Positions 12,701 to 58,665 of a stretch of DNA of 64,000 bases are shown here, in pieces. Position numbers and translations under genes: made by a program. The notes under the pieces were generated by a model that did not search any database, was not told the origin of the DNA, and was given only the letters and a program-made list of their open reading frames with translations. The DNA is from Kondoa subrosea (taxonomy: Eukaryota), in NCBI GenBank assembly GCA_039545335.1, contig BCIN01000001.1, positions 186,001-250,000 on the forward strand, in the 5' to 3' direction. Position 1 is the stretch's first letter. Each line of letters starts with the position of its first letter.

Positions 12701-13825
12701 CGGTTATACTTACTCAAACGGGCAATGTGTCAATACCAACACGGATATCAACAATTGCGGTACACCTGGCAGACAATGTCCATCTAGTCCTGGAGGAACA
12801 GCGAAATGCAACAATGGACAGTGTACTTTAGTTTGCGGTACTGGTTCTTCTCTCAGCAACGATGGAACTTCTTGCATTGCTACTGATTCTGATCCGCTAA
12901 ACTGGTATGTTTCGTTATAGCTGAACACAAATTGTCAGCTGATGTATGCTTTGCAGCGGTGGTGTCGGGAAACAATGCCCAGCTCCTGCTTTCTCAAATG
13001 CTAAATGCAAGAATTCTCAATGCGGATATGACTGCTATTCTGGTTATAGCGATGACGGGACTAAGTGCATTCGAACGAGCGACGATCCCAATAACTGGTA
13101 AGTCGTTATCTTGTTAGCTTGCAGTGCCAATCCTGATTTTTTTTTCCCTAGCGGTGCTGTCAAGAATGTCTGCCCTACTCCTAGCAATGGCAAAGCTATC
13201 TGTACCGGCGGTTCTTGCGATATTTCCTGCACTGCCCCTTACAAACCTACCAATGGCAAATGTCTCTTGAATGCTTCTGCTGCACCAAAGAAGAGGAAAC
13301 GTTCCAAAGATGTTTCACTCTGCCCTGCCGGAGAAACGTGAGAGCTTCACATCATCTCCTCTCAACAATAGCTGATAGAAAGTTCTAGTGCATGCCCTAT
13401 CGCTGGCGCTGCATCTTTCGCTTTCTCGGCACAACATGATGTTACACACCTGCACACTACCGATCTCATCAAGGGATCAGATGGTTATGAATGTTTGGAT
13501 GTGCAAATCTCTTTGGACTCTTGCGGACGATGCGGAAATGATTGTTCGAAAATAGCCAATACACTGGGTGTAGGCGTGAGTTTCTCCTCCCATTTCTTTG
13601 CCACATCAAGTACTGATGATTGCTCCTCAGTGCACTGAAGGTTCATGCGTTATCTTCAGCTGTCAGCCGGGCTACGAAGTATCTTCGGATGGTCTTTCTT
13701 GTCTGGCATCATTGGGAGGCAATTCTACTTCCGCCTCAAGGCAACGCAAGCGTAAATCAGGCCACGCACATCACAAGAAGTCGTCGCACGGACACAAGCT
13801 TTCAGCTCACTCGCATTCGCATTGA
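9720..13825 (+). CDS. Large secreted cysteine-rich protein: ~18 tandem D-x-x-N-C-G repeats (STIG1-like) plus C-terminal PriA/CPL1-like domain
   Basis: Signal peptide MKSNQLLLATSLGLLSLVSA; ~46-48 aa repeats CxxTxxDxxNCG..C..PxNG..C.NG.C...C..GY; KKRKR linker; CPAGETACPI..GYECLD..LDSCG.CG.DC..C.EG.C.I.SC.PGY; His-rich tail; about 15 GT-AG introns. Confidence 0.85.
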
Positions 13826-46287: not shown

Positions 46288-47635
46288 TTAGCTCTTCTGC
46301 TTATACTCTATGAAGATTTTCTTGAACACTATCAATATGAATTATAAATTCATCAGCATCTCGACCATTCTCAACTAATAAAGAGACAACTCACATTCAT
46401 ACGATAACCAACATATCGCGTTCGAAGGTGTATGAACCATAACTCTCGGTGTCAAACCTCTAAAGAAACCTCTAGCACCTTCCCTTTGCCAAATAATGCT
46501 GGCAGCATCTTTCATTCCATTCGCTTTTCGAATAATCGCATCATCTGAACTTCCTCTCGTTTGCAACAAAGTCTTGCACACGTCTAATGGGTTCGTGAAG
46601 GCTGAAGCGAGAGCGCCAGCTAATCCGCCTGAAATCATATGCGTCGCTGGTGAATAAGAATTGGAGGGATTGAGTATCGCTTTGGCGTATTCATAGACTG
46701 TGAATTGAACGGCAGTAAAAGGTACGGTCATGGCTGCAATTCAGAGCCGTACGTAAGCACAAAGATTGCCTGAATGGAGCTTCTCACGCACTTAGTGTTG
46801 TAGGGTAAGATAACCAGAATGCTCCTAATCCTTCTTGCGCATAGACTTTCTGAAAGGTAGATGCTACTGTTCTCGATGTTGCATTGTGTAATTGTAGCCG
46901 TTGTTTGACCACTGTAAGTCAAATAGCTCTCGAATGAGCGATGCAAATTGGCAAATGAAGGGCTTGACTTACCGTCAAAGGGATTCATAAGCGCATCTGA
47001 CGCTATTGTTGCTGATGCACCAGCGATTGCTATTCAATCATCAATTCGATTCATTCTGATGCATGCGGGTGATGCTCACCTGTCGAAGTAAATTGATGTC
47101 CTGCGTTGTTTCCTCCCGTAGCATGCTTCACAGCTTCATACGTCCCTACATCACACTCATTCATCAGCTCTCTTCACTTTATTTCATACCTTTGCTGGGA
47201 ACCTTACCGAAATAAACAGCATGCGCCGGACCAGCTCCCATAATCACACTTCCTACTCCACGCCATAATCGTTTCGCACCTTCTTGTGCAGAAATAGTAG
47301 AAAAAGCATTCGTCACTCCAGAATAAATAGCTTGAGGTTGAGTAGTATAAACTTGCATTCGAGTCTGCCGTAATCATTCGTAATCAGCTTCCATTCGAAT
47401 TGGTCGAGAGTATAAAGAGGATCACGGACTTTGATTGAATCTATTGGAAACATTACTGTATGTTCTGAGATACCAGCTAAAGCGCCAGCCAACATATTCA
47501 CTCCAACTTTATAAGAACAGCAGCATGTAAATTTTGCGGATTCTAAATAGACTTTGAGGGCAAGAGTCACGAACGTGTTTGACCTTCTAATCCTTCATAC
47601 TCTACTTCTTCAATAGTTTCTATCGCTTGTGCCAT
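46288..47635 (-). CDS. MRS3: Mitochondrial iron carrier (Mrs3/Mrs4, mitoferrin)
   Basis: [92 protein letters not shown]. Confidence 0.96.
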
Positions 47636-48181
47636 GTTTCGGTTAGGAATTGAAAGTCGAGATTTTCTAGGGTGATGTAACGAAAGACCGGACTGCTTTG
47701 ATTGACCAGCTACTTGAGTGGAGGATGCAAGCCGTAGTGATCAGATAAAGGGTACAGCAGTAGTACAGCTCTGGCAGTAGTAGGGCTGTTCGAGATGTGA
47801 TGCGAACAAGAATTTCTGATTGCGAGTGATCGATTGGACGAGGGAATTGTCCGGTCAGGATATACACCAAGCGAATAGCACAGTCTCTGTGAGCACAATG
47901 GTATTATCCAATCGGTGATCTGCGCAAAGCCTGGGCGGGATGTGGAGCAAGACAACCCAGAGGCGTTTTTAAACATTGCAGGAAAAAAATGTGACATGTG
48001 ATTGTCAAGAATCACAGATGACGAGACTCCTGGCTAGATTGTGTATACAGGAAGACAAATGGAAGGAGCATAAATCATGCATTTTGTATTTTCGTCTTCC
48101 CTTGATTGGCAGAACTAATAAGCCAATCTACAGGGTCTACTCTAGGTGTCCGGGATATCTGATGATGACATTCTTGGCAGA

Positions 48182-49195
48182 TTAGTCCTGTTTGTGTTGT
48201 TTCGCGAATCGATCGTGTTCTTCAATATTTCTCGATTCCCACTAAAGACAGAGAAGTTAGCGTACTTCGAAACTCCAGACTGAGCAGTTTACAGGATAGT
48301 TGATCCTATATGTATCGATCAGTGAAGGCGGCATTGAAGTCATCAAATTGACTCACCAGATATCTTCCACATCCTGACCTGAGAAATAATGTACTGAATC
48401 TGGCACTGAACCAAGCTTCTCTTTCAGCTTATTGTGCACTAAATGCATCTTGAGTATCAGAAGACAGAAATACGACATGCAAACAACGTACCAACAAAGA
48501 TCGCGAATTCAGTTTTAGGCATTGAGGCGCGCTTGTCTTCAGGTAGAGCAGCCAATTGTTGATCTATATCTTTCTGAAGTTCCGAGACAGCATATGAGAG
48601 TGTCCTGTCAATGATTCAATTCTTTAGCTAAGCGTACTAGCATGAGAATCGATATCACTGACGTCCGCGAATCATCAACTTCGTCCTGAATAATTAATCA
48701 GACAGGCGAAACTTTGAGGATCAACCGAGCTTACTACTATCAGAATCTTCCTTCCGATGAGCGGTCTGCTCCCTAGTGTACTGAAATCAAGCCATTGAGT
48801 CCTAACTACTTCTTTACCCAATTTCTCTTCAACACCAGTCTCTTCTTCTCCTGTTGTTGTACCCAATTCTTCGTACAATGATAATCCGATAGCTTGAATA
48901 GGAATGTTCTTGCCTCCTTCTGATTTCAAGAAGGTTCGTAGCATTCGAGCGGGGATACTACGTTTTCCATTATAAACAGAAGAACAGAGGTAATAGGAAA
49001 GGCAGGGTGACCGTACAATCCTCCACCTCCAATTGCAACCATCAGATCAGGTTGAAAGTTGGCAAGAATCTTAAGCACACAAAGGGAGACTTAAGAGATT
49101 GGCGACAATTCGAAGCGAAATGGACTTACTTTTGAAGCAGAAGAAGCACATAGCTCATGAATATCGTTGTAGGTCGCGTAGAGCTTGACTACCAT
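48182..49195 (-). CDS. HPT1: Hypoxanthine/xanthine-guanine phosphoribosyltransferase (fungal Hpt1/Xpt1 type)
   Basis: YATYNDIH, PDLMVAIGGGGF/IPARMLRTFLK, IPIQAIGLSLYE, RTQWLD, VDEVDDSRT/TLSYA, HNKLKEK, W/INYP/WES. Confidence 0.94.
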
Positions 49196-49567
49196 CTTGC
49201 AGAAACTGTTGCGGGTCGAGATAAGAAATTTTCGAAAATGTTGTTTGTTCTTGTTCGTCCAAGTCTGATGTCTTTTGGAAGGTTGGGCAACAGATGGCAA
49301 TCATCTGTTATCGCTTTCATGTGGTCATGCGGCTAGCGAGCCATTGCTGGGCTGAATGCGATTGCTTACATATGCACTCAAAATGCTCGAATCTTTGTCT
49401 TGGCTTTACTCTTTCGCTGGCTTTACTGTTCTTATGCTTTGTCTCTTATATTCGATGTGTCAGCCTTTATCTCCCCAGCACGTGCTGTTGGCGCATTACA
49501 TGAGCTTAAGATATTCGTTTGCTCTTCCTCTTCTCGTTCCTTGCCTGTTGTCTTCTTGCATTGCCCT

Positions 49568-50429
49568 ATGCCTCCTCTCACCCTGGACAATCTAACGATG
49601 AACGAAGAAACTCAGTCTGAGAGTTTCAATCACTTCAACGGTTCACCACCTTCTTATGCTACTTCTGAACATTCCAACAATACTGCTGGTCCCGTGGCAT
49701 CTGTACCAACCGACTTCACTCTCAACTCACATTCTGCTGCTGATGCTGCTGCAAACACGAATGGTGCTCATATCGACCCTAAAACGGCTAATGCACAAGA
49801 ACTGGCTGGTCTAATTGGACAAGTCTTCCATCATACTTTCGTCAATCCATCAAGTATAAGTCTTCTCATCGAAGCGGTTACCCACTCTTCCGCTTCTGCT
49901 ACTAAAGAAGGCAATACTCGACATGCGCGAGGAGATCAAGATATTATAGCTGGTGTTGCTGGCGTACAATTATGCAGGAATAATATCAATACAGGTGGTA
50001 CGCATTGATATTGGTCTTAGAATTTATTGACGACTTGTTAATCTGCGATTGTATGGTACAGTCAACGCAACTAGGCAGAAACATAAATTTGCCAATGATC
50101 AAATGGGTCAAATCGCTAGTAATATGAACTTGAGTGACTTCGTTCGCATCAACAATGGGGTGAGTTTTCTCTGGCTCCGCTCTCTTCTCTAGGCTAAAAT
50201 TCAATTGACTAACTCAAGGTTGAAGATGTCACTCTAAAGATGGAAATTGCGCAGCCCCTATTTCTTGAACATGTATCAGGAGATTTGCTAAAGATCTCAC
50301 AGTGTCCTGGAAGCAATCTGTTATGTGATCTTTGAAGATTGCATGTCAGAAGGCGGAGCTGGTCTTGCAGAATTCATAAGTCTTCTGAATAGGTTGGATC
50401 TGTTGTATGTGCCAGAAGCAGAACAATAG
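49568..50429 (+). CDS. Stand-alone degenerate RNase III-fold protein (paralog 1)
   Basis: FHHTFVNP..SLLIEAVTHSS..GNTRHARGDQ, ANDQMGQIASNMNLSDFVRI, TLKMEIA/VLEAICYVIFED..LLNRLDLL. The last junction needs a weak GC-AG intron at 50251-50302. Confidence 0.6.
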
Positions 50430-50555
50430 ATGACAGCAGGGGATCAAGGTTGCACACTTTATTATTAGAAAATCATGCATCAACGATGAGCCAGTATATA
50501 CAGTTTTGGCAGGAAAACCTCTATGGAACGAAAAGAGACAATCACAGCGATCTAT

Positions 50556-51815
50556 TTACACAGCAACACATTTGCCCAGATGAGTCAGGCCAGAAAGGCG
50601 GAAGCCTTCCTTGCATTTCACTGGCAAGACGAGTCAGAGACATACCCGAGACAAACAAAGGCAACAAGACATACGAGCGTGACAATGACCATCGTGACAT
50701 CCAGAGAATAGAACGTTGGGCGCCTGACTGGTTGAGCACGAAGAATGGCAGGCGCCGCAATGATCGAGATCGGTTTTGAGCTGAGGTGCAAGAGCTTTAA
50801 AAGAGTGCCGATACTCAGAAGAGCCCAACTTACATCGACACATTCATGTCCAGCAGATAAAGTGCCATCACCTTTGATCAGAGAGCAAGAACTTTCATTC
50901 TTTCGGGGGCAGGCAGAGCGAATTGATTTCAATGCCAAAGCACGACGAGCTCTTCTGCCTGGTGCGGAGGATCCATAGTTGCCATCGTTACATTGGTAGC
51001 CATTGCTGAGCTTGTAATCGCTGCATTTCCCAATTGCATAGGTGATGACTATGAAAACGGGTCAGAGCGAAGTAATTTTGATCAAAGCAAGACTTACATC
51101 CGTTACCGGCAAGAGAAGCAACTACCGCCGAACTCTTCAGGGTACATTGAACATCACTAGAACCAGTAGAATCGACAGTAGATGTATAGGCGAGGCAACC
51201 CGAATCTGCGTTGCAAGCTTGTTGACAAGCCGAGGCAGAATCAGTTGTCAGAGTCCGGTATTCTGCCATACCGATTTGTTCGAAATAAGGATAGACAGCG
51301 AATCCCCCGTTGTTGCCACAAACAGATTGTGCTAGAGCGCTTGCATCGGAGGAGTAAGAAGAGCAAGAGCCTTTGAAACCGGAAGTGTCTATAGAAGAAA
51401 CGGCATGAGACACAAATGCATAGACATACGACCTCGGGAGCATACAGGCGCTTGTCCTCGACATGTTCGCATCATCGACGGGAGTTGAGCGCATGTAACA
51501 TGTGACAGAGTTTGAGTGATATGCGACAGTGCTAGAACGGTTGATCAGCAACTACGCGATCTTTATATGATACTTTACATACAAAGACTTGCACTCCGTG
51601 TCTTGCTGGCATGCTGTTTCGCAAGCAGCAACAGTTGGTTGGTCGTTTGAAGATATCAGAGCACCGTCATCATCGACGTTGGGGTCTGCGTTGCAACGAA
51701 ATGATGAACAAGGCCCGATGCTGATTGCAAATGACTCACAGTTGGCAAATTGACTTTGAGCTGAACCCGAAACGAAGGCCAATACTGTGATTTTGATAAG
51801 GATTGAAGAGCGCAT
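50556..51815 (-). CDS. Secreted protein with two PAN/apple-like modules plus C-terminal PriA/CPL1-like domain (paralog 1)
   Basis: Signal peptide MRSSILIKITVLAFVSGSAQS; ACETACQQDTEC..CYMRS; ACQQACNADSGCLAYT..CTLKS; PGRRARR; CPRKNESSC..GHECVD..DLDHCGAC..C..SGCHDGHC..CKEGF. Confidence 0.8.
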
Positions 51816-52638
51816 GGCTTGTGGTTGGCGGGATACTAGTAAAGGAATGTAAAGAAGTGGCGCGGCGGGAGTGGATGTAGGAAGCAAAAGAAAAGCAAAA
51901 TGCGTATTTAAATGGGGAAAAAAAAGGAACAGGGCCACACCGACAGGCGGAACGTCATACAGGAAGGCTGCTGCCAAGATCTTGCGGTAACTATTGTGTC
52001 TTTGTAAGACAGCAGCCTTCTGAAAAGGGTAAGGATGAGTTCCAACGCCCTAACGGCGCGAAAAGTGCCTTAGGCACCTGCTCGTGGCCCATCAAGGGCA
52101 ACACAGACGCAATGAACGTTCCAGATGTAGACCGGCTGCGAGACTAGTGATAAGATATAGTAGGAAACGAAACTCGGCATGAAGCGAGAGCGACAAGAAG
52201 CATGCAAAGAAACACTTAGGCCCCAAGAACTTGAAGTAGACAAGTGCGATCTGCCTACGAGAAAGATAGATATAGTGTAGTAGCAAACGACACCACAAGG
52301 GACTTCGCAGGGAACTGGGAGCAAGGCCGGATGAACGAAGATATGAGCAGACTGTCACCGTGCTTTGCGGCTTTTTGGGAAGTCTATCTGTCAAGACGAA
52401 CAGGATAGCTGCAGGGAATTCAGTCGCGCTTGCTCGCGGACGTGTATTCACCCTTTTTCGTTTGGGCGACATGTCAAAGTTACTTAGTAAGCTGCCAAAT
52501 TATTTGAGTCCATGTTCCACGAGAGAAAGTTGGAGAAAGGCCAAAAAGGCATTCGGGAAAGACCCAAGTAATCAGAGTATGCAATATTAGCCCAATTAAT
52601 TATGCACAGTCACACCCTCAATAGAAACCAAAACGCAT

Positions 52639-53845
52639 TTACTCCGAAACACAGGTGCCTGTAGTTGGGTCCAGGTTGTAACCATCTTTGCAAGATACTT
52701 GCTTAGGAGTTAGCTTGATTCTCGAAAAAAGAAACGGGGTATTTACTCACAAGCTTGACATTCACCAGCAAAGCAACCTGAATACAAAACGCCTTCACCT
52801 TGAGAAGACGTGCAATTGTTTCCACAGCGACCACAGTGTTCAACCTCGTATTGAGTCTATGTAGCTAATTAGCTTCTAAGCTTGATAAAAGTCAAGCGAA
52901 AATAATCACATCAACACATTCATAGCCAATACCGACTGACCCATCTCTCTTCCTTAATTGACAGGCGCTTTCATTCCTCTGAGGACACATTGGCTTGTAG
53001 AGATCGGCTTGCAATTGAGCTCGACGAGATCTAGCTCGAGCAGCACTTGAAGGTACTAGAGTATTGGTGCAAGCAGCGTTGGAATTTGCATCGACTTGAG
53101 CAGAGTATGTCGAACACATTCCTTTAGCGCCAGTATAGAAGCCATTTCCAGAGAGAGATGTTGCCTTGGCTTCACTCTTGAGGTAGCAATTGATTTGGCC
53201 AGATGTGCCAGCTGCTGGTCCAACGGCAGTGTAGCCAGCGCAGTCCGTCTCGGCCGAACATGTTTGCTGACAGGCCTGGAATGTATCGACAGTTGAAGAA
53301 GATAACTGCGATATCTATTAGCTTGGCGGACACATAATCAATATTCGCAAACGTACATCTGCAGCATTCAGTTGATCCATGTAATTGAAGACACAGTATC
53401 CGTTGGCTTGATTGGCCTGGGATTGCGCCAAAGCGGAAGCACCACTTGTAAATCTACAGCAAGACATCAGTAGATGTTTTTCTATTGCTCTCGAAAGCTC
53501 ACTGAGAGCAGCTTCCTTTATAACCAGTACTGTAATGATTGTGAGTACTTAATCCATTGGCGGGAAGACTGCTCTTCAAGTAGCACCTGGAAAAAGCATA
53601 GGTTAGCATATCTTTTCTTCGTAACTGAGATGAAGAGCTGACGTGACATCGTTAGAGTTGACTGTAAGAGTATAAGCGTTACACTGTGCATTGGCTGTAC
53701 ATTGATCTTCGCATGCTTGAAAGGTAGGTTGTGCTGAATCTGTAAGATCGTTCCCGTAAGCATCACGATCGGCATAGTGTGCATATTGAGCGAAGGCTGG
53801 TGCTGATAGCATGAATAGAGTGGCGAGAAGTTGAATCGAGATCAT
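52639..53845 (-). CDS. Secreted protein with two PAN/apple-like modules plus C-terminal PriA/CPL1-like domain (paralog 2)
   Basis: Signal peptide MISIQLLATLFMLSAPAFA; DAYGNDL..ACEDQCTANAQCNAYT; ACQQTCSAETDCAGYT..NCYLKS; PSSAARARSRR; CPQRNESAC..GYECVD..EVEHCGRCGNNC..SGCFAGEC..CKDGY. Confidence 0.82.
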
Positions 53846-55012
53846 CTTGATGTTGCTTGCTTGAAGTTTGCGATGTGTTGTAAGCTGAAGAAGGGGTTAG
53901 TGAGCGGTAGTACTAGAATTGTAGGAGAGAAGAAGAAGAAGAGAGGAAGGCATTGCATGCTCACTTGAAAGGGTTCAGGTCAAATTGGAATATCCTGATG
54001 AGTGGATGTTCGGCTGAAGTTCAAGAAGATCCTTCGCGATCCAGATGTGAGAGATAAGATAGATACAAGATGAACTCTAAGCACGTGCGAAGCTGAATGC
54101 TGTTCGATGCGAGCATGAATACGAAATGATCGAAATCCAATCTATCAATCTATGCCTGAATGGCTCCTGTGATTGCCTGGACACAAGCGAGAGAAAGGAA
54201 TGCGCAGACTGATCGGTGCGAGAAACGAGGAACACAAATGATACAAATCTCGCTGTCCAGGGCTACAAGTATAACTTGAAGTTCGAATCAAACTCTTGAA
54301 CCGAAACCAGATGTGACTTGGATTTCTTCGCAGTTTGTGTCCAACGTTGCGACAGCCTGTTGCTCTTCCTACTGTATGCATGGTTAGCGAGATCAAGGGA
54401 AGAATTCGCTTCAGGGAAAGCTCCGTGTCCAACTTTTCATGGAATGCTAGCACAATCGTGGTATAGCGCTGATTGGACGCTGTTTCACGTATATTTCACA
54501 TCGAGCATGGCCTTTCTTCTTTGAATAATCTCGCTGTATCTTTTCTTTGCACACTGCAAGACTTCAAGTCTACAAGCTCTTCCCTGTTTTTGCTGCTGTT
54601 CATTATTGCGTGTCATCCACGGAGGCGCCCTGTATGCCCCTAAGAATGTGTCTATCCGGTGCAGATGTAATAGCAAGCTTCGACATTAGCTCTTTAATGC
54701 GCATTTGTGCCGTAAGCTTGAATTTGCGGCTTATCTTTGGCCTTGTACCTAATACAAGAACACACTCAAACACTACACATCTTGACTGCCTAGCTTCTCT
54801 CTTCGCTCCTTTCTGCTCCGACCAATGGGTTCTGATTCTACAACGACACTGGTGCTCGTGTAGTACAATGGCAGCAAAACACCTTCAACGATACTGCTCT
54901 CAACCTTTCTTTCAGTCTTGCCGAATCTCTTTCATCCCGTTCTTCCACTCTCGTTGATGCATCTCGCGCTCGACAAGCTTCTTCTCCTGCAGCTATTGTA
55001 TCAGGTACTATC

Positions 55013-55588
55013 ATGTTGGGTGGTGAAGGCCTTTTACGTGAAGTGGAAGCTCGAATCGACTACACCTTCGAGCATAGAGATCAGGCGATTGGCGATGTCA
55101 TCACTGCTTGCGATCAGAGAGTCAAGGATGATAGAGGTCTGGCAAGAGTTGGAGCTACTATGGTTGTCGCTGTGGCTATTCTTGTGCGTATTCAGCGTAC
55201 CATTTGTATCTAAACTTACCCCGAATTCAGATTATGCATCTTCGCGGAACCTTCACTCCAGGTGATTCTTAACATCAGCAAGGTACAAATCATAGCTGAT
55301 GTTCTGTTCAGCTCGCGAGAAGCAGCAAACCCAAGAGCTGCTTGGCAAGTTCAGTCTTAAACGAGCTGCCCAACGGATAGGCTTTGATAAGTCAATTGTC
55401 CTAACCAATGTGCGCTACTCTCATGTATTTACGAACGAATACTAAGCCAGACACAGGAAGCGACTGTCACTCCTGCAATGGCGTCTCGTGTCTTCCAATC
55501 TGTCTTGGGCGCTATCGTGCTCGATTGTCGCGGCGATGAGGAACAGCTCGTTAGGCTGTTGTCACGATGGGATCTACTTGTGATGTAA
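55013..55588 (+). CDS. Stand-alone degenerate RNase III-fold protein (paralog 2), ~145 aa
   Basis: Four exons with GT-AG introns: EVEARIDYTFEH..DDRGLARVGATMV, LKRAAQRIGFDKSI, TPAMASRVFQSVLGAIVLDCRGD..LLSRWDLL. Confidence 0.68.
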
Positions 55589-55882
55589 TAGACCAGGAGT
55601 TCAATGTAAATAACACTTATTCCTGCAAAACGATACAATATTCAAATCCTTTTCAGCTGGAATAACACATCAACAGCTTTGCGAAACCCTTCTCCTTTCC
55701 CCCTCTTCAATACCAAATTCAAAATAACACCTTCGAAATAGATAACAACCAAAATACAGCGAGCACAGACAACTTTTTCTTCTCCAAGAACGGGAAGAAT
55801 GAGAATGAGAGAATGAGAGTGATTGTATGTATATTGTAATGAGTGGAATAATCTTGGCAAGATGTGAGGGTAAGTAAATGCT

Positions 55883-58665
55883 TTATTCTTGGTCTTCGTC
55901 GTCCAAGAAGTTTTTGGATGCTGCAAGAGAAATCAGATCAGCTTGTGTCCGACCAATCGGATTGCACCACCCACGAGCAGCGTAAGAATGACATTTATGC
56001 TATGGTAAGTCTTATATTAGCAATACAAGGCAGCCACCGGGAATATGACCTACTGCGTGTTTCCACCAAAGTGCTGGACCTTTGTCCGTCCCGATTTGTC
56101 TTTTGGTCATGTACTTCTGCCATTTTGTGCAGCTGTGACAATAGCCTTCCATACTTCCGTCATCCGCCACTCGAGTATTGAGCGGAGGCGTGAACTTGTA
56201 ACCAGAAGTAGAAGAAATTCCATGCGTATATTGCTTGTGATACCTTTGTGCGATGAATTAGATCAGTTCACAGTCACAAGAATGAAAGAAAGCAACTCAC
56301 CAGAAAGCAGAAGTCTTGAGTTGTAACCATTTCCCTTGAGGTTCGGGACAAATAGCACACCATCCCTCTTTGGTTTGACCTTTGCCACGAATCCATTTCG
56401 GTGTGTACATATCATCCCTGAACCTGGTCTTTTGCTGCTTGGGTACCATTTCGGCATTGTTGTTGTTGAAATCCGTTGGAGGTGGTCGACGGATCAACCA
56501 TTCTCTACCACCTGCAGAAGAGACGCTTGATCCTCCTTCACTCGAGGCAGAAGGTGCTGGTGAAGGTGGCGCAGAGAGAAGAGTAACAGCAGGAGATAGA
56601 GCATCAGGCAGAAAATCCGTAGTTGGCGGAGAAGGATAAGTCAAGCCAGTGACTGCAACCGAACGACCACGACGACCAGAAGAGTTTGAAGTGGTTCTTC
56701 GCAAAATGGGTCGCGCTTCCGTCATTTCTGCTTCTGGCATATAATTACCAGATTTATCCGTATCTTGATCTTCGGATGGATCGGAAATTGGATCAGAAGG
56801 AGGTATAGTGGTGATGGAGTGACGAGTCATGACTTGTTGCGCATTGACTTCGTTGGCTACACCGCTTGCAGCAGGTCCACGAAGCATACGTGCAGGCGAT
56901 AAAGCGTCAGGGATAAGACAAGGCGCGAATACAGCAGCGGTAGTTGAGCTGGCCGGCTTCTTCTCTGAACCATGCAATTGCTGAGTTGGAACAGTAATCT
57001 GTTGCGCAGCCGAATGCTGATTACCGATCGGTCCTCTCAAGCTGGCAAAGAAAGCTTGATTGTCCATACTTTGACTGTGTCGCAAACGCTTCTGTTCGGG
57101 CTGTCCTTGCTCTGATGGCACGCGAATACGCATCTGAGGTAGCGAGGCTTGAATATTGACAGCGCAATGCGAGTTCTGCTGACCATTAAGAACTTGCGGT
57201 GTTGAATGAGTGTACTGTTGCTGTTGCATGGAAGAAAGGCCTGAGTAAGTGAGAGCTCGAGCTGGCAATGCCGATAAGCGACGATCTTGGTACCGGTGAT
57301 CGTATGCTTGGGTTGGCGGCGGAGCGAAATGTTGATGATTGTTAGGAGGCAAAGGAATGATGCTGTTACGGCGATACTCTGGAGCATAATGATGGACCAA
57401 GGTTCGCGGGCTTGTACCTTCATATGGCTGGTGGTAAGGCTGAGAGTATGGTACGTTGTTGCGCTGTTGCTGAACTTCTGCGCAAGGTGCAAAAGATTGC
57501 TGCCATTGGATAGGACTTTGATGCACCTGATTATAACGAGGTGCAGACTGATAAGCGTTAAGCGCATGTCGTCCTGGTGCACTGCTTTCTTTACCGGAAG
57601 GCTGGAAGTTGGCAGCGAGGAAAGCTGGACTTGCAGAAGCAGCATAACGAGGTTGAGGCGCGACGATTACTGGAGCAGCAGGTTCATACTGAATGACTTC
57701 AGGATGACTTCCGGCGGTGAAAGACCGATTGCGGTCAGCTGAGACACCGGATGATTCAGAAACAATCGAAGTAGCAGGTGAGTTGTCTAGGCTAGGCGGT
57801 GCAGAAAAGCCATATGAGAACTGACTGGTCGCTTCCTCTTCTGAATTTGATACATTTCTGTCCCGCTTGCTCTCTGGTAAATCTTGATGGGTTTGCTGCG
57901 GTTCAAGGATCAAACGCAAACCCCCAGTAGGAGCTGACCAGCCACTGTATCGGTGACCATACGAGCCGTTGCTGTCAGGGTTGGCAGGAATGGAAAAGTA
58001 CGATGGGCGGCGAGAATCGGAACCTTCTGATGTGTAAGAAGAGCTATTATCGCCAGATTGGTTAGGCCAAAGAAGAGGAGGCGTATCCAGTGTACCTGCT
58101 GATTCGGCAGAAGGAGATAAAGAAGCTACAGAAGGGGTAGATTGCATTCGATAGGTAGACCATTGAGTTTGACCGTGAACAGGTGCTGCCATGTGAGCTT
58201 GCTGTGGAGGTCTGGTGTTGACTTGGTCGGATGGCATCTTGCCAGCGAGTGACAAGTGATGTTCTAATCGAGCTTGATAAAATCGACTCGCGCTGGTCTG
58301 CTTGCTCAAAGTGCAGCTGTCTTGAGCATGCTGTTCTAGTCCTTGCTGCTACAGATGAACGAGTCAAGCAATGTATGCAGTCTTCGAGAGATAAGACTCA
58401 CGCCAACCGATTGCCTTGAAGCGACTGGAGAGGAATTGGGATCATTAGGCGCGCCGCGAACGTTGCTCAAGGCGCTGTTGGCAGAAGAGGGCCTATCCGC
58501 CTGCTGAACAGCAAGAGCACCATCTTCGTTCCAGGGGCTGGCTTGTAAAGAATGTTGAAATACAGCAATTTGACTGGATCCTATGGTACCATGTTCGTGT
58601 TGCTGTGCAGGCTGATCCTGGTAAGACCTGCTGAAGTGGTCGGTTTGCTGCAAAGAGCTTTGCAT
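55883..58665 (-). CDS. Rua1/Meu26-type (DUF4451) transcription regulator
   Basis: Long Q/P/S-rich region, then DMYTPKWIRGKGQTKEGWCAIC..WLQLKTSAFW/YHKQYTHGISS..F.PP..EGYCHSCTKW..WWKHA/HKCH. Start tentative. Confidence 0.85.

What the first reader, a model, noticed from the sequence alone, without database searches (positions are those of the whole stretch)
49568..55588. Two stand-alone, apparently catalytically dead RNase III-fold paralogs hidden by introns
Seen: manual splicing gives two small plus-strand genes (49568-50429 and 55013-55588) that the ORF track shows only as fragments. Both show RNase III elements in the right order: (Y/H)TF plus helix (LLIEAVTHSS), a signature-like segment, an 'A..x(G/N)(L/F)...I' helix and a K..ADxxEA..GA..LD-like segment. 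Established: RNase III catalysis needs the E and D of ERLEFLGD and the D and E of DxxE. Paralog 2 has LARVGA and SRVFQS, so all four acids are replaced. Paralog 1 has HARGDQ and IAVLEA, so at most two are kept. Neither shows a dsRBD, PAZ or helicase domain. They share two approximately equivalent intron positions (phase 1, then phase 0) and a C-terminal LL.R.DLL, which supports paralogy. Inference: a pseudo-nuclease family that could bind dsRNA, heterodimerise with active RNase III or Dicer domains, or modulate RNAi or antiviral responses.
Basis: partly seen in the sequence, partly recalled or inferred. Interest (0 to 1): 0.72.

Follow-up and report, generated by a model that had tools for sequence, protein, structure and literature searches.

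The report
Two degenerate fungal mini RNase IIIs
Two small intron-split genes are very divergent members of an unstudied fungal family of single-domain RNase III proteins; one has clearly lost its RNA-cutting residues and probably only binds RNA, while the other may be dead, half-active or a broken gene.

Summary
Both genes are there. The spliced models match RNase III profiles over the whole domain. They match best a family of small, dsRBD-less 'RNase III domain-containing proteins' (P2 43.7 bits, P1 28.8; 0 of 2000 shuffles reach either). All 15 named clusters of the 20 I looked up are filamentous ascomycetes. P1 and P2 also carry that family's phase-1 intron within one codon. Likely mL44, mL57 and two Dicers lie elsewhere in the genome.

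The 'four acids' argument needs correcting. The family already has Ala at E41 (100 of 102) and mostly no acid at D114, like active Mini-III. Only D45 and E117 discriminate. P2 has lost both (D45A, E117Q), so it is very probably cleavage-dead. P1 keeps E117, its D45 register is ambiguous, and it needs a poor GC splice donor. Loss of these acids recurs in the family (16 of 102 lack one, 2 lack both). No RNA runs or orthologs were found, and no link to RNAi is shown. An earlier scan note describes a similar orphan fungal RNase III in another genome (not checked). Verdict: a real, modestly interesting variant of a known kind.

The parts
49568..49997 (+). P1 exon 1: about 75-aa acidic Ser/Thr/Asn-rich tail, then RNase III helices 1-3 with the degenerate signature (E41 position Ala at 49925; G44/D45 positions Asp/Gln at 49934/49937 in the gapless register)
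49998..50061 (+). P1 intron 1, GT-AG, phase 1, at codon +20 after the D45 position (family: +19 in 24 of 26 loci)
50062..50159 (+). P1 exon 2 (98 nt), middle helices of the domain
50160..50218 (+). P1 intron 2, GT-AG, phase 0, strong donor and branch point
50219..50250 (+). P1 exon 3 (32 nt), loop before the last catalytic helix
50251..50302 (+). P1 putative intron 3, 52 nt, phase 2, with the atypical donor GCAGCC; the weak point of the model
50303..50429 (+). P1 exon 4: E117 kept (codon 50310-50312), C-terminal helix, stop
54836..55012 (+). Open, coding-like Ser/Thr/Ala-rich stretch in frame with P2, without an ATG; probable N-terminal tail, start unresolved (nearest ATG, 54825, is out of frame)
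55013..55183 (+). P2 exon 1: helices 1-3; E41 position Ala (55142), G44 kept (55151), D45 position Ala (55154)
55184..55230 (+). P2 intron 1, GT-AG, phase 0, 47 nt
55231..55261 (+). P2 exon 2 (31 nt)
55262..55311 (+). P2 intron 2, GT-AG, phase 1, at codon +20 after the D45 position
55312..55409 (+). P2 exon 3 (98 nt), middle helices
55410..55450 (+). P2 intron 3, GT-AG, phase 0 (41 nt; 47 nt with the acceptor at 55456)
55451..55588 (+). P2 exon 4: D114 position Arg (55487), E117 position Gln (55496), C-terminal helix, stop

Best explanation
P1 and P2 are two old, fast-evolving members of the small (about 150 aa) single-domain fungal RNase III family. That family has a Mini-III-type catalytic site in which only the D45 and E117 acids are regularly kept. 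Shown: family membership by profile, size, lack of a dsRBD and a shared intron; and that P2 has lost both key acids while keeping G44, the fold pattern, the reading frame and the splice sites. Inferred: P2 is a maintained pseudo-nuclease. It dimerises through the signature helix and sits on double-stranded or structured RNA without cutting it, needing a partner or its low-complexity tail for affinity because it has no dsRBD, and so protects or gates an RNA substrate. P1 is most likely also inactive (distorted signature), but I cannot exclude residual activity or a recently broken gene.
For: Family HMM 43.7 (P2) and 28.8 (P1) bits against 20.2 and 15.0 for the bacterial HMM. An HMM built without any window sequence gives 27.9 and 13.8 bits, 0 of 2000 shuffles. 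Phase-1 intron at +20 in both genes against +19 in 24 of 26 family loci. In a FastTree tree P1 and P2 join the family clade (support 0.855), apart from this genome's Dicers and the bacterial enzymes. An AlphaFold model of family member P0051 (pLDDT 93.9) matches RNase III nuclease domains with TM 0.77-0.83. E. coli D45A and E117Q bind dsRNA with low or no cleavage (PMC8708148 Table 1); Mini-III E106Q is fully inactive (PMC5141509). A rough neutral-decay estimate gives at most 2e-4 for losing both acids while keeping frame and splice sites. Non-catalytic RNase III domains with real roles are known (RNC1, KREPB4-10).
Against: No expression data. No ortholog found, so conservation of the dead state is untested. 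Branch lengths are 2.3-2.5 substitutions per site and P1 and P2 do not group together; long-branch artefacts are possible. The family HMM is broader than the bacterial one, and its members were picked with a profile that contained window exons, which inflates the contrast. Each gene has one doubtful spot: the P1 donor and the P2 start. Mutant RNase III binds RNA largely through its dsRBD, which P2 lacks. The spliced proteins themselves were not folded. The neutral-decay figure ignores the possible upstream frameshift.
Confidence: 0.5

Rival explanations
1. Both genes, or P1 at least, are decaying duplicates under relaxed selection. P1 has lost its third splice donor and makes a 214-aa product without the E117 helix; P2 has a frameshift near its original start. 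The missing acids then reflect decay, not a new role.
For: The P1 donor GCAGCC has no G at +5 and is not enriched at likely donor positions (4 seen, 2.9 expected), while about 85% of the excess GT donors in 264 kb have G at +5. GC-AG introns are about 1% in fungi (PMC7072748). In the gapless register P1 has Asp at G44, which is invariant in 102 of 102 family members and whose G44D change is a null in E. coli. The coding-like stretch upstream of P2 has no in-frame ATG. Very long branches.
Against: All modelled exons are open and keep codon bias. Five of six introns are ordinary GT-AG. P2's whole domain can be made from the ATG at 55013. Each defect is a single position, which an assembly error would also give. 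An earlier scan note reports GC-AG introns and micro-exons in this genome (not checked by me).
Confidence: 0.27
2. Enzyme plus pseudo-enzyme: P1 keeps a Mini-III-type two-acid site (its Gly-Asp read as G44-D45, plus E117) and pairs with dead P2, giving a heterodimer with one active site that nicks one strand of a duplex, as proposed for trypanosome KREN/KREPB pairs.
For: Two of three HMMs align P1's Gly-Asp to the signature Gly-Asp with a one-residue gap. E117 is kept. Mini-III-like proteins have the same A-D-T-E pattern (3 of 3 printed). The genes lie 4.6 kb apart. Precedent in PMC6800513 (abstract) and PMC3867540.
Against: The largest HMM and hhalign prefer the gapless register, which puts Gln at D45. 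The other register needs two compensating indels in the signature helix. The E117 helix depends on the weak GC donor. Neighbourhood is no evidence of binding, and two unrelated genes lie between them.
Confidence: 0.13
3. The proteins come from another RNase III source (a Dicer RNase IIIb fragment, a bacterial RNase III, or a two-domain RNase III lineage) and resemble the ascomycete family only by degeneration.
For: The best single-sequence hits of P1 include unnamed two-domain proteins and bacterial enzymes (P0128 23.2, L052 22.6 bits, against 21.9 for the best small-family member). P1's first helix ends in Thr-His-Ser-Ser, as in canonical enzymes. Tree support is only 0.855. All named family members are ascomycetes, while the host looks basidiomycete.
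Against: The shared phase-1 intron. Ala at E41 in both. P1's Gly-Asn-x-Arg-x-Ala matches the family motif seen. The P1+P2 pair profile scores small-family members higher than bacterial ones (median 19.9, n=99, against 12.75, n=80).
Confidence: 0.08
4. They are the mitoribosomal mL44/mL57 or other housekeeping RNase III-fold proteins.
Against: A probable mL44 (PF22935 E 7e-5 plus a dsRBD exon; best solved-structure hits are yeast mL44 at E 0.44-0.48) lies on contig C2. A PF14622 protein that I read as mL57 from recalled motifs lies on C9. P1's N-terminus is acidic, unlike a mitochondrial presequence.
Confidence: 0.02

Closest known systems
Small 'ribonuclease III domain-containing proteins' of filamentous ascomycetes (e.g. 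Aspergillus udagawae GFF29788, A. fischeri XP_001259026, Xylaria nigripes KAI2638206; probably also A. fumigatus AFUB_054390, called 'of unknown function' in PMC12871901, passages read; I did not check that this gene is in the family)
   Same: One RNase III domain of about 150 aa, no dsRBD, Ala at E41, a phase-1 intron after helix 3, sometimes an N-terminal tail, tandem copies (Aulographum KAF1985768/9).
   Different: 86 of 102 members keep both D45 and E117; P2 keeps neither and P1 keeps E117 with a distorted signature. Very long branches, extra introns, and a host that looks basidiomycete.
Bacterial and plastid Mini-III (class 4 RNase III; PMC5141509, PMC4357697, passages read)
   Same: Catalytic domain only. 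Same A-D-T-E pattern as the parent family in 3 of 3 printed Mini-III-like proteins (identified by size and a recalled motif).
   Different: Mini-III is active, homodimeric and aided by ribosomal protein L3. The family model matches canonical RNase III nuclease domains best, and no Mini-III is among the rows shown of the top 50.
Trypanosome KREPB4-KREPB10 (PMC6800513 abstract; PMC3867540 passages) and plant RNC1
   Same: Divergent, non-catalytic RNase III domains kept for binding or partnering.
   Different: They carry extra domains or tandem domains and work in organellar complexes. No homology beyond the fold and no partner is shown here.
Arabidopsis RTL4/RTL5 (PMC4687873 passages; PDB 9h4a)
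   Same: Single RNase III domain without a dsRBD; 9h4a matches the family model at TM 0.78.
   Different: Plant lineage. Targets of RTL4 are unknown; its catalytic state was not stated in the passages I read.
Mucor R3B2 (PMC8136814 passages)
   Same: A fungal RNase III domain with a non-canonical acid cluster; a warning that altered motifs need not mean no activity.
   Different: It keeps three acids, has two dsRBDs and cuts single-stranded RNA.

Membership tests
RNase III superfamily | Profile match over the catalytic domain | tested here: met
   Bacterial HMM 15.0/20.2 bits, family HMM 28.8/43.7 bits, 0 of 2000 shuffles; hhalign 97-98%
RNase III superfamily | All-helical RNase III fold of the proteins themselves | not testable with these tools
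   Spliced proteins could not be handed to the folding tool; only family member P0051 was folded
Active RNase III nuclease | D45 and E117 equivalents (P2) | tested here: not met
   Ala and Gln
Active RNase III nuclease | D45 and E117 equivalents (P1) | tested here: inconclusive
   E117 kept if intron 3 is spliced; D45 is Gln or Asp depending on register
Small ascomycete-type single-domain RNase III family | One domain, about 150 aa, no dsRBD, PAZ or helicase | tested here: met
   Stops follow the last helix in both models; no Pfam domain in six exons
Small ascomycete-type single-domain RNase III family | Ala at E41 within a Gly-Asn-Lys-Arg-Leu-Ala-type signature | tested here: met
   Ala in both; P1 keeps G, N, R, A; P2 keeps L, A, G
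Small ascomycete-type single-domain RNase III family | Invariant G44 | tested here: inconclusive
   Kept in P2; Asp or Gly in P1 by register; 102 of 102 in the family
Small ascomycete-type single-domain RNase III family | Phase-1 intron about 19 codons after D45 | tested here: met
   +20 phase 1 in both; +19 in 24, +20 in 1, +23 in 1 of 26 family loci
Small ascomycete-type single-domain RNase III family | Nested in the family clade | tested here: inconclusive
   Clade of family + P2 + P1 has support 0.855; P1 is outermost; long branches
mL44 / mL57 | Being the genome's ortholog | tested here: not met
   Better candidates on C2 and C9; the mL57 label rests on PF14622 plus recalled motifs
Dicer / Rnt1-type class I | Tandem RNase III domains or a dsRBD, with intact ERLEFLGD | tested here: not met
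   Absent; two loci with tandem RNase III matches are elsewhere
Mini-III | dsRNA cleavage as a homodimer; role in rRNA maturation | not testable with these tools
   Needs biochemistry; the P2 sequence argues against cleavage
Enzyme-pseudoenzyme heterodimer (KREN/KREPB-like) | Physical pairing of an active and a dead domain | not testable with these tools
   Spliced chains not available to the complex predictor; no job sent

The most novel reading that the evidence does not exclude
A widespread, never-characterised fungal family of Mini-III-like single-domain nucleases has reached a basidiomycete lineage (by old inheritance or transfer) and split there into a half-active P1 and a dead P2. The two form a one-site heterodimer that nicks or shields duplex RNA and tunes what the two Dicers and two Argonautes see.
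Probability: 0.1. Interest if true: 0.65.

Novelty: new variant of a known kind. Interest (0 to 1): 0.33.

Why it matters
The genes themselves matter modestly: dead RNase III domains are known, and nothing ties these two to a pathway. The wider point is the parent family. It is common in filamentous ascomycetes, keeps exactly the two acids that Mini-III-like proteins keep, and my ten literature searches found only a one-line 'unknown function' mention that probably refers to it. If its typical members cut RNA, fungi have an overlooked Dicer-independent dsRNase class, and naturally dead members such as P2 are its likely regulators. If P1 and P2 are expressed, they would also extend the family to a basidiomycete.

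Tried and rejected
Expression: no RNA holder listed for 48500-57000, so no reads were laid; this says nothing either way.

Homolog searches that found nothing: P1 exon 1 against 5.8 billion proteins (27 candidates, none at E<=1); ESM Atlas on the P1 exon-1 core; solved-structure sequence searches with exon 1 of each gene (one chance repeat-protein hit); the mL57-like ORF (4773 candidates, none). The profile search listed the best 150 of 9334 (cut-off 78 bits); P1 and P2 score 128 and 86 on that profile, so only close orthologs are excluded.

More paralogs in this genome: not found with four exon queries, two family proteins or an HMM scan of 264 kb around the locus (8531 fragments). The genome-wide first look also misses P1 and P2 themselves, so absence is not shown. 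No Rnt1-type gene rang with PF00636; not followed up.

Alternative P1 splices: the only all-GT-AG in-frame route I found (a 2-nt exon at 50226-50227) scores 18.2 bits against 28.8; no third intron scores 19.1; a GC donor at 50254 scores 30.8 but its donor is no better. No convincing upstream exon for P2.

A simple tandem duplication of the block: rejected; no nucleotide self-match, and translated matches are mainly between the PAN genes. IQ-TREE timed out; FastTree was used on 85 of 89 rows, leaving out three Mini-III-like and the mL57-like row, which aligned poorly. 36 of 146 new representatives were dropped as partial or intron-retaining, and 8 more with Glu at E41 before the 102-member counts. 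No complex prediction was sent.

Literature searches found no study of the small fungal family. Subscription papers are largely missing from the library, and I did not open supplements (Figure S10 of PMC12871901 may bear on this).
Full report
Setting. The window is C1:186001-250000 of an 18.9-Mb, 27-contig genome with short introns. Other scan notes call it a basidiomycete, one of them Pucciniomycotina (leads only). My own support is indirect: 13 matches to the CPL1-like family, 4 over cut-off (that this family is basidiomycete is recalled), and the intron style. The genome has two loci with tandem RNase III matches (Dicers) and two Piwi loci, so an RNAi core is present.

Gene models. Splicing by coordinates gives P1 (228 aa, four exons) and P2 (145 or 143 aa, four exons). 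Five of the six introns are GT-AG, 41-64 nt. The spliced cores have coding-like codon use (0 of 5000 shuffles each).

Two weak spots. P1 reaches its last exon in frame only through a 52-nt intron with the donor GCAGCC. In 264 kb of this contig about 85% of the excess GT donors have G at +5, and GCAGCC is not enriched (4 seen, 2.9 expected); it is one base short of GTCAGC, which is (11 against 4.1). GC-AG introns are about 1% in fungi (PMC7072748, passages). P2 is preceded by 59 open codons with strong coding bias (0 of 5000 shuffles; top 2.5% of 568 open windows) but no in-frame ATG; the nearest, at 54825, is out of frame. Either spot could be an odd splice, an assembly slip or a real lesion. 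No RNA run was listed.

Fold. No single exon hits Pfam (0 of 6). An HMM from 80 bacterial RNase III domains (80 of 81 loci) scores the spliced P1 15.0 and P2 20.2 bits, above all 2000 shuffles (maxima 6.7 and 8.5). P1 and P2 are only about 21% identical to each other (E 0.011), so paralogy rests on the shared family, the shared exon and the neighbourhood more than on pairwise similarity.

Family. A short recalled motif retrieved 48 metagenome loci that encode small RNase III-like proteins. From them I reached full proteins (24 hits) and, with a profile that also held window exons, the best 150 of 9334 representatives. An HMM of 110 near-complete domains scores P2 43.7 and P1 28.8 bits over nearly the whole length. 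An HMM built without window sequence gives 27.9 and 13.8, again above all 2000 shuffles. hhalign gives 97-98% against the family and 85-94% against bacteria. The family has one phase-1 intron, at codon +19 after D45 in 24 of 26 distinct loci; P1 and P2 have theirs at +20. In a FastTree tree both join the family clade (0.855) on branches of 2.3-2.5, not as sisters. Against this, P1's best single-sequence hits include two-domain and bacterial proteins. Of 20 clusters looked up, 15 carry an organism name, all Pezizomycotina; Atlas clusters are mostly Ascomycota. This samples the family's range and does not define it. A model of member P0051 (pLDDT 93.9) matches RNase III nuclease domains at TM 0.77-0.83; this tests the family, not P1 or P2.

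Not mL44, mL57 or Dicer. A probable mL44 lies on C2 (PF22935 E 7e-5, dsRBD exon, weak hits to yeast mL44). A PF14622 protein that I read as mL57 lies on C9; that label is partly recalled, and a search with it found no relatives.

Catalytic site. Among 102 family domains without Glu at E41, E41 is Ala in 100, G44 is invariant, D45 is Asp in 91, D114 is Thr 41, Asp 21, Ala 16, Ser 15, and E117 is Glu in 93. Both D45 and E117 are kept in 86; neither position is acidic in 2. Three Mini-III-like proteins show the same Ala-Asp-Thr-Glu pattern, and Mini-III is active (PMC3867540, passages). In E. coli, E41A and D114A keep weak activity in excess Mg2+, D45A has low activity and binds, E117K/A/Q is dead and binds, and G44D neither cuts nor binds (PMC8708148 Table 1). 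Mini-III E106Q is inactive (PMC5141509). So only D45 and E117 discriminate. P2 has Ala and Gln there, with G44 kept: cleavage-dead with high likelihood. P1 keeps E117. Its signature reads either gapless (Asp at G44, Gln at D45; preferred by the largest HMM and hhalign) or with a one-residue gap that restores Gly-Asp. Mucor R3B2 shows that odd acid clusters can still cut (PMC8136814, passages), but it keeps three acids.

How it most likely works. Shown: membership and residue states. Inferred: P2 was kept after losing catalysis, since neutral loss of both acids with frame and splice sites intact has a rough joint probability of at most 2e-4 (a crude model). I therefore read it as a dimeric, non-cutting RNA-binding or scaffold protein (0.5), with precedent in RNC1 and KREPB4-10 (PMC3867540 passages; PMC6800513 abstract). 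Rivals: decay of one or both genes (0.27); a half-active P1 paired with dead P2 (0.13); origin from another RNase III (0.08); mitoribosomal (0.02). Nothing here links the genes to RNAi or viruses. Their neighbours are two paralogous PAN-domain genes, a phosphoribosyltransferase-like gene (recalled) and a Rua1-type regulator.

Novelty. The family is annotated in databases but seems unstudied: ten searches found only the remark on a small A. fumigatus RNase III protein of unknown function (PMC12871901, passages; supplement not seen, family identity not checked). Passages of bioRxiv 10.1101/2022.07.28.501871 and PMC4357697 added nothing on it; PMC4687873 (passages) gave the plant RTL4/5 comparison. 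An earlier scan note (e1-7835403) describes an orphan stand-alone fungal RNase III in another genome. Dead RNase III domains are a known kind and dead members recur in this family. What is new is a doubly dead, very divergent member, with a degenerate neighbour, in a probable basidiomycete. Verdict: new variant of a known kind, interest 0.33.

Noticed in passing
window 50600-51730 and 52700-53960, minus strand (approximate): Two paralogous, intron-rich genes for probably secreted proteins with repeated PAN domains (PF14295 E 3e-6 to 0.09) and Cys-rich C-termini; 34-52% identical in translated blocks. They lie between P1 and P2.
   Followed up: partly
L094-L141, P0025-P0170: The small Pezizomycotina RNase III family keeps the same two acids as Mini-III-like proteins (86 of 102 keep D45 and E117) and one conserved phase-1 intron that gene callers often read through. 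It may be an uncharacterised Dicer-independent nuclease class.
   Followed up: partly
G000 genome-wide: PF00636 rang only in two Dicer loci; no Rnt1/Pac1-type gene was found with this query. It may be hidden by introns.
   Followed up: no
P0066, P0104, P0119, P0122, P0128: Unnamed proteins with two RNase III domains and no dsRBD hit; one domain often has Lys at E117, and P0066 has an N-terminal kinase domain. A possible natural active-plus-dead tandem.
   Followed up: no
window 54712-54793, plus strand: A strong intron-like stretch (GTAAGC donor, branch point, TAG) upstream of P2, probably in its 5' UTR.
   Followed up: partly
window about 199486-199702 of contig C1 (window 13486-13702, plus strand): A CPL1-like domain gene split by an intron.
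   Followed up: no
window 56297-58348 minus; 46375-47700 minus: A Rua1_C-domain regulator (PF14616) and a mitochondrial carrier gene (PF00153) flank the locus.
   Followed up: no
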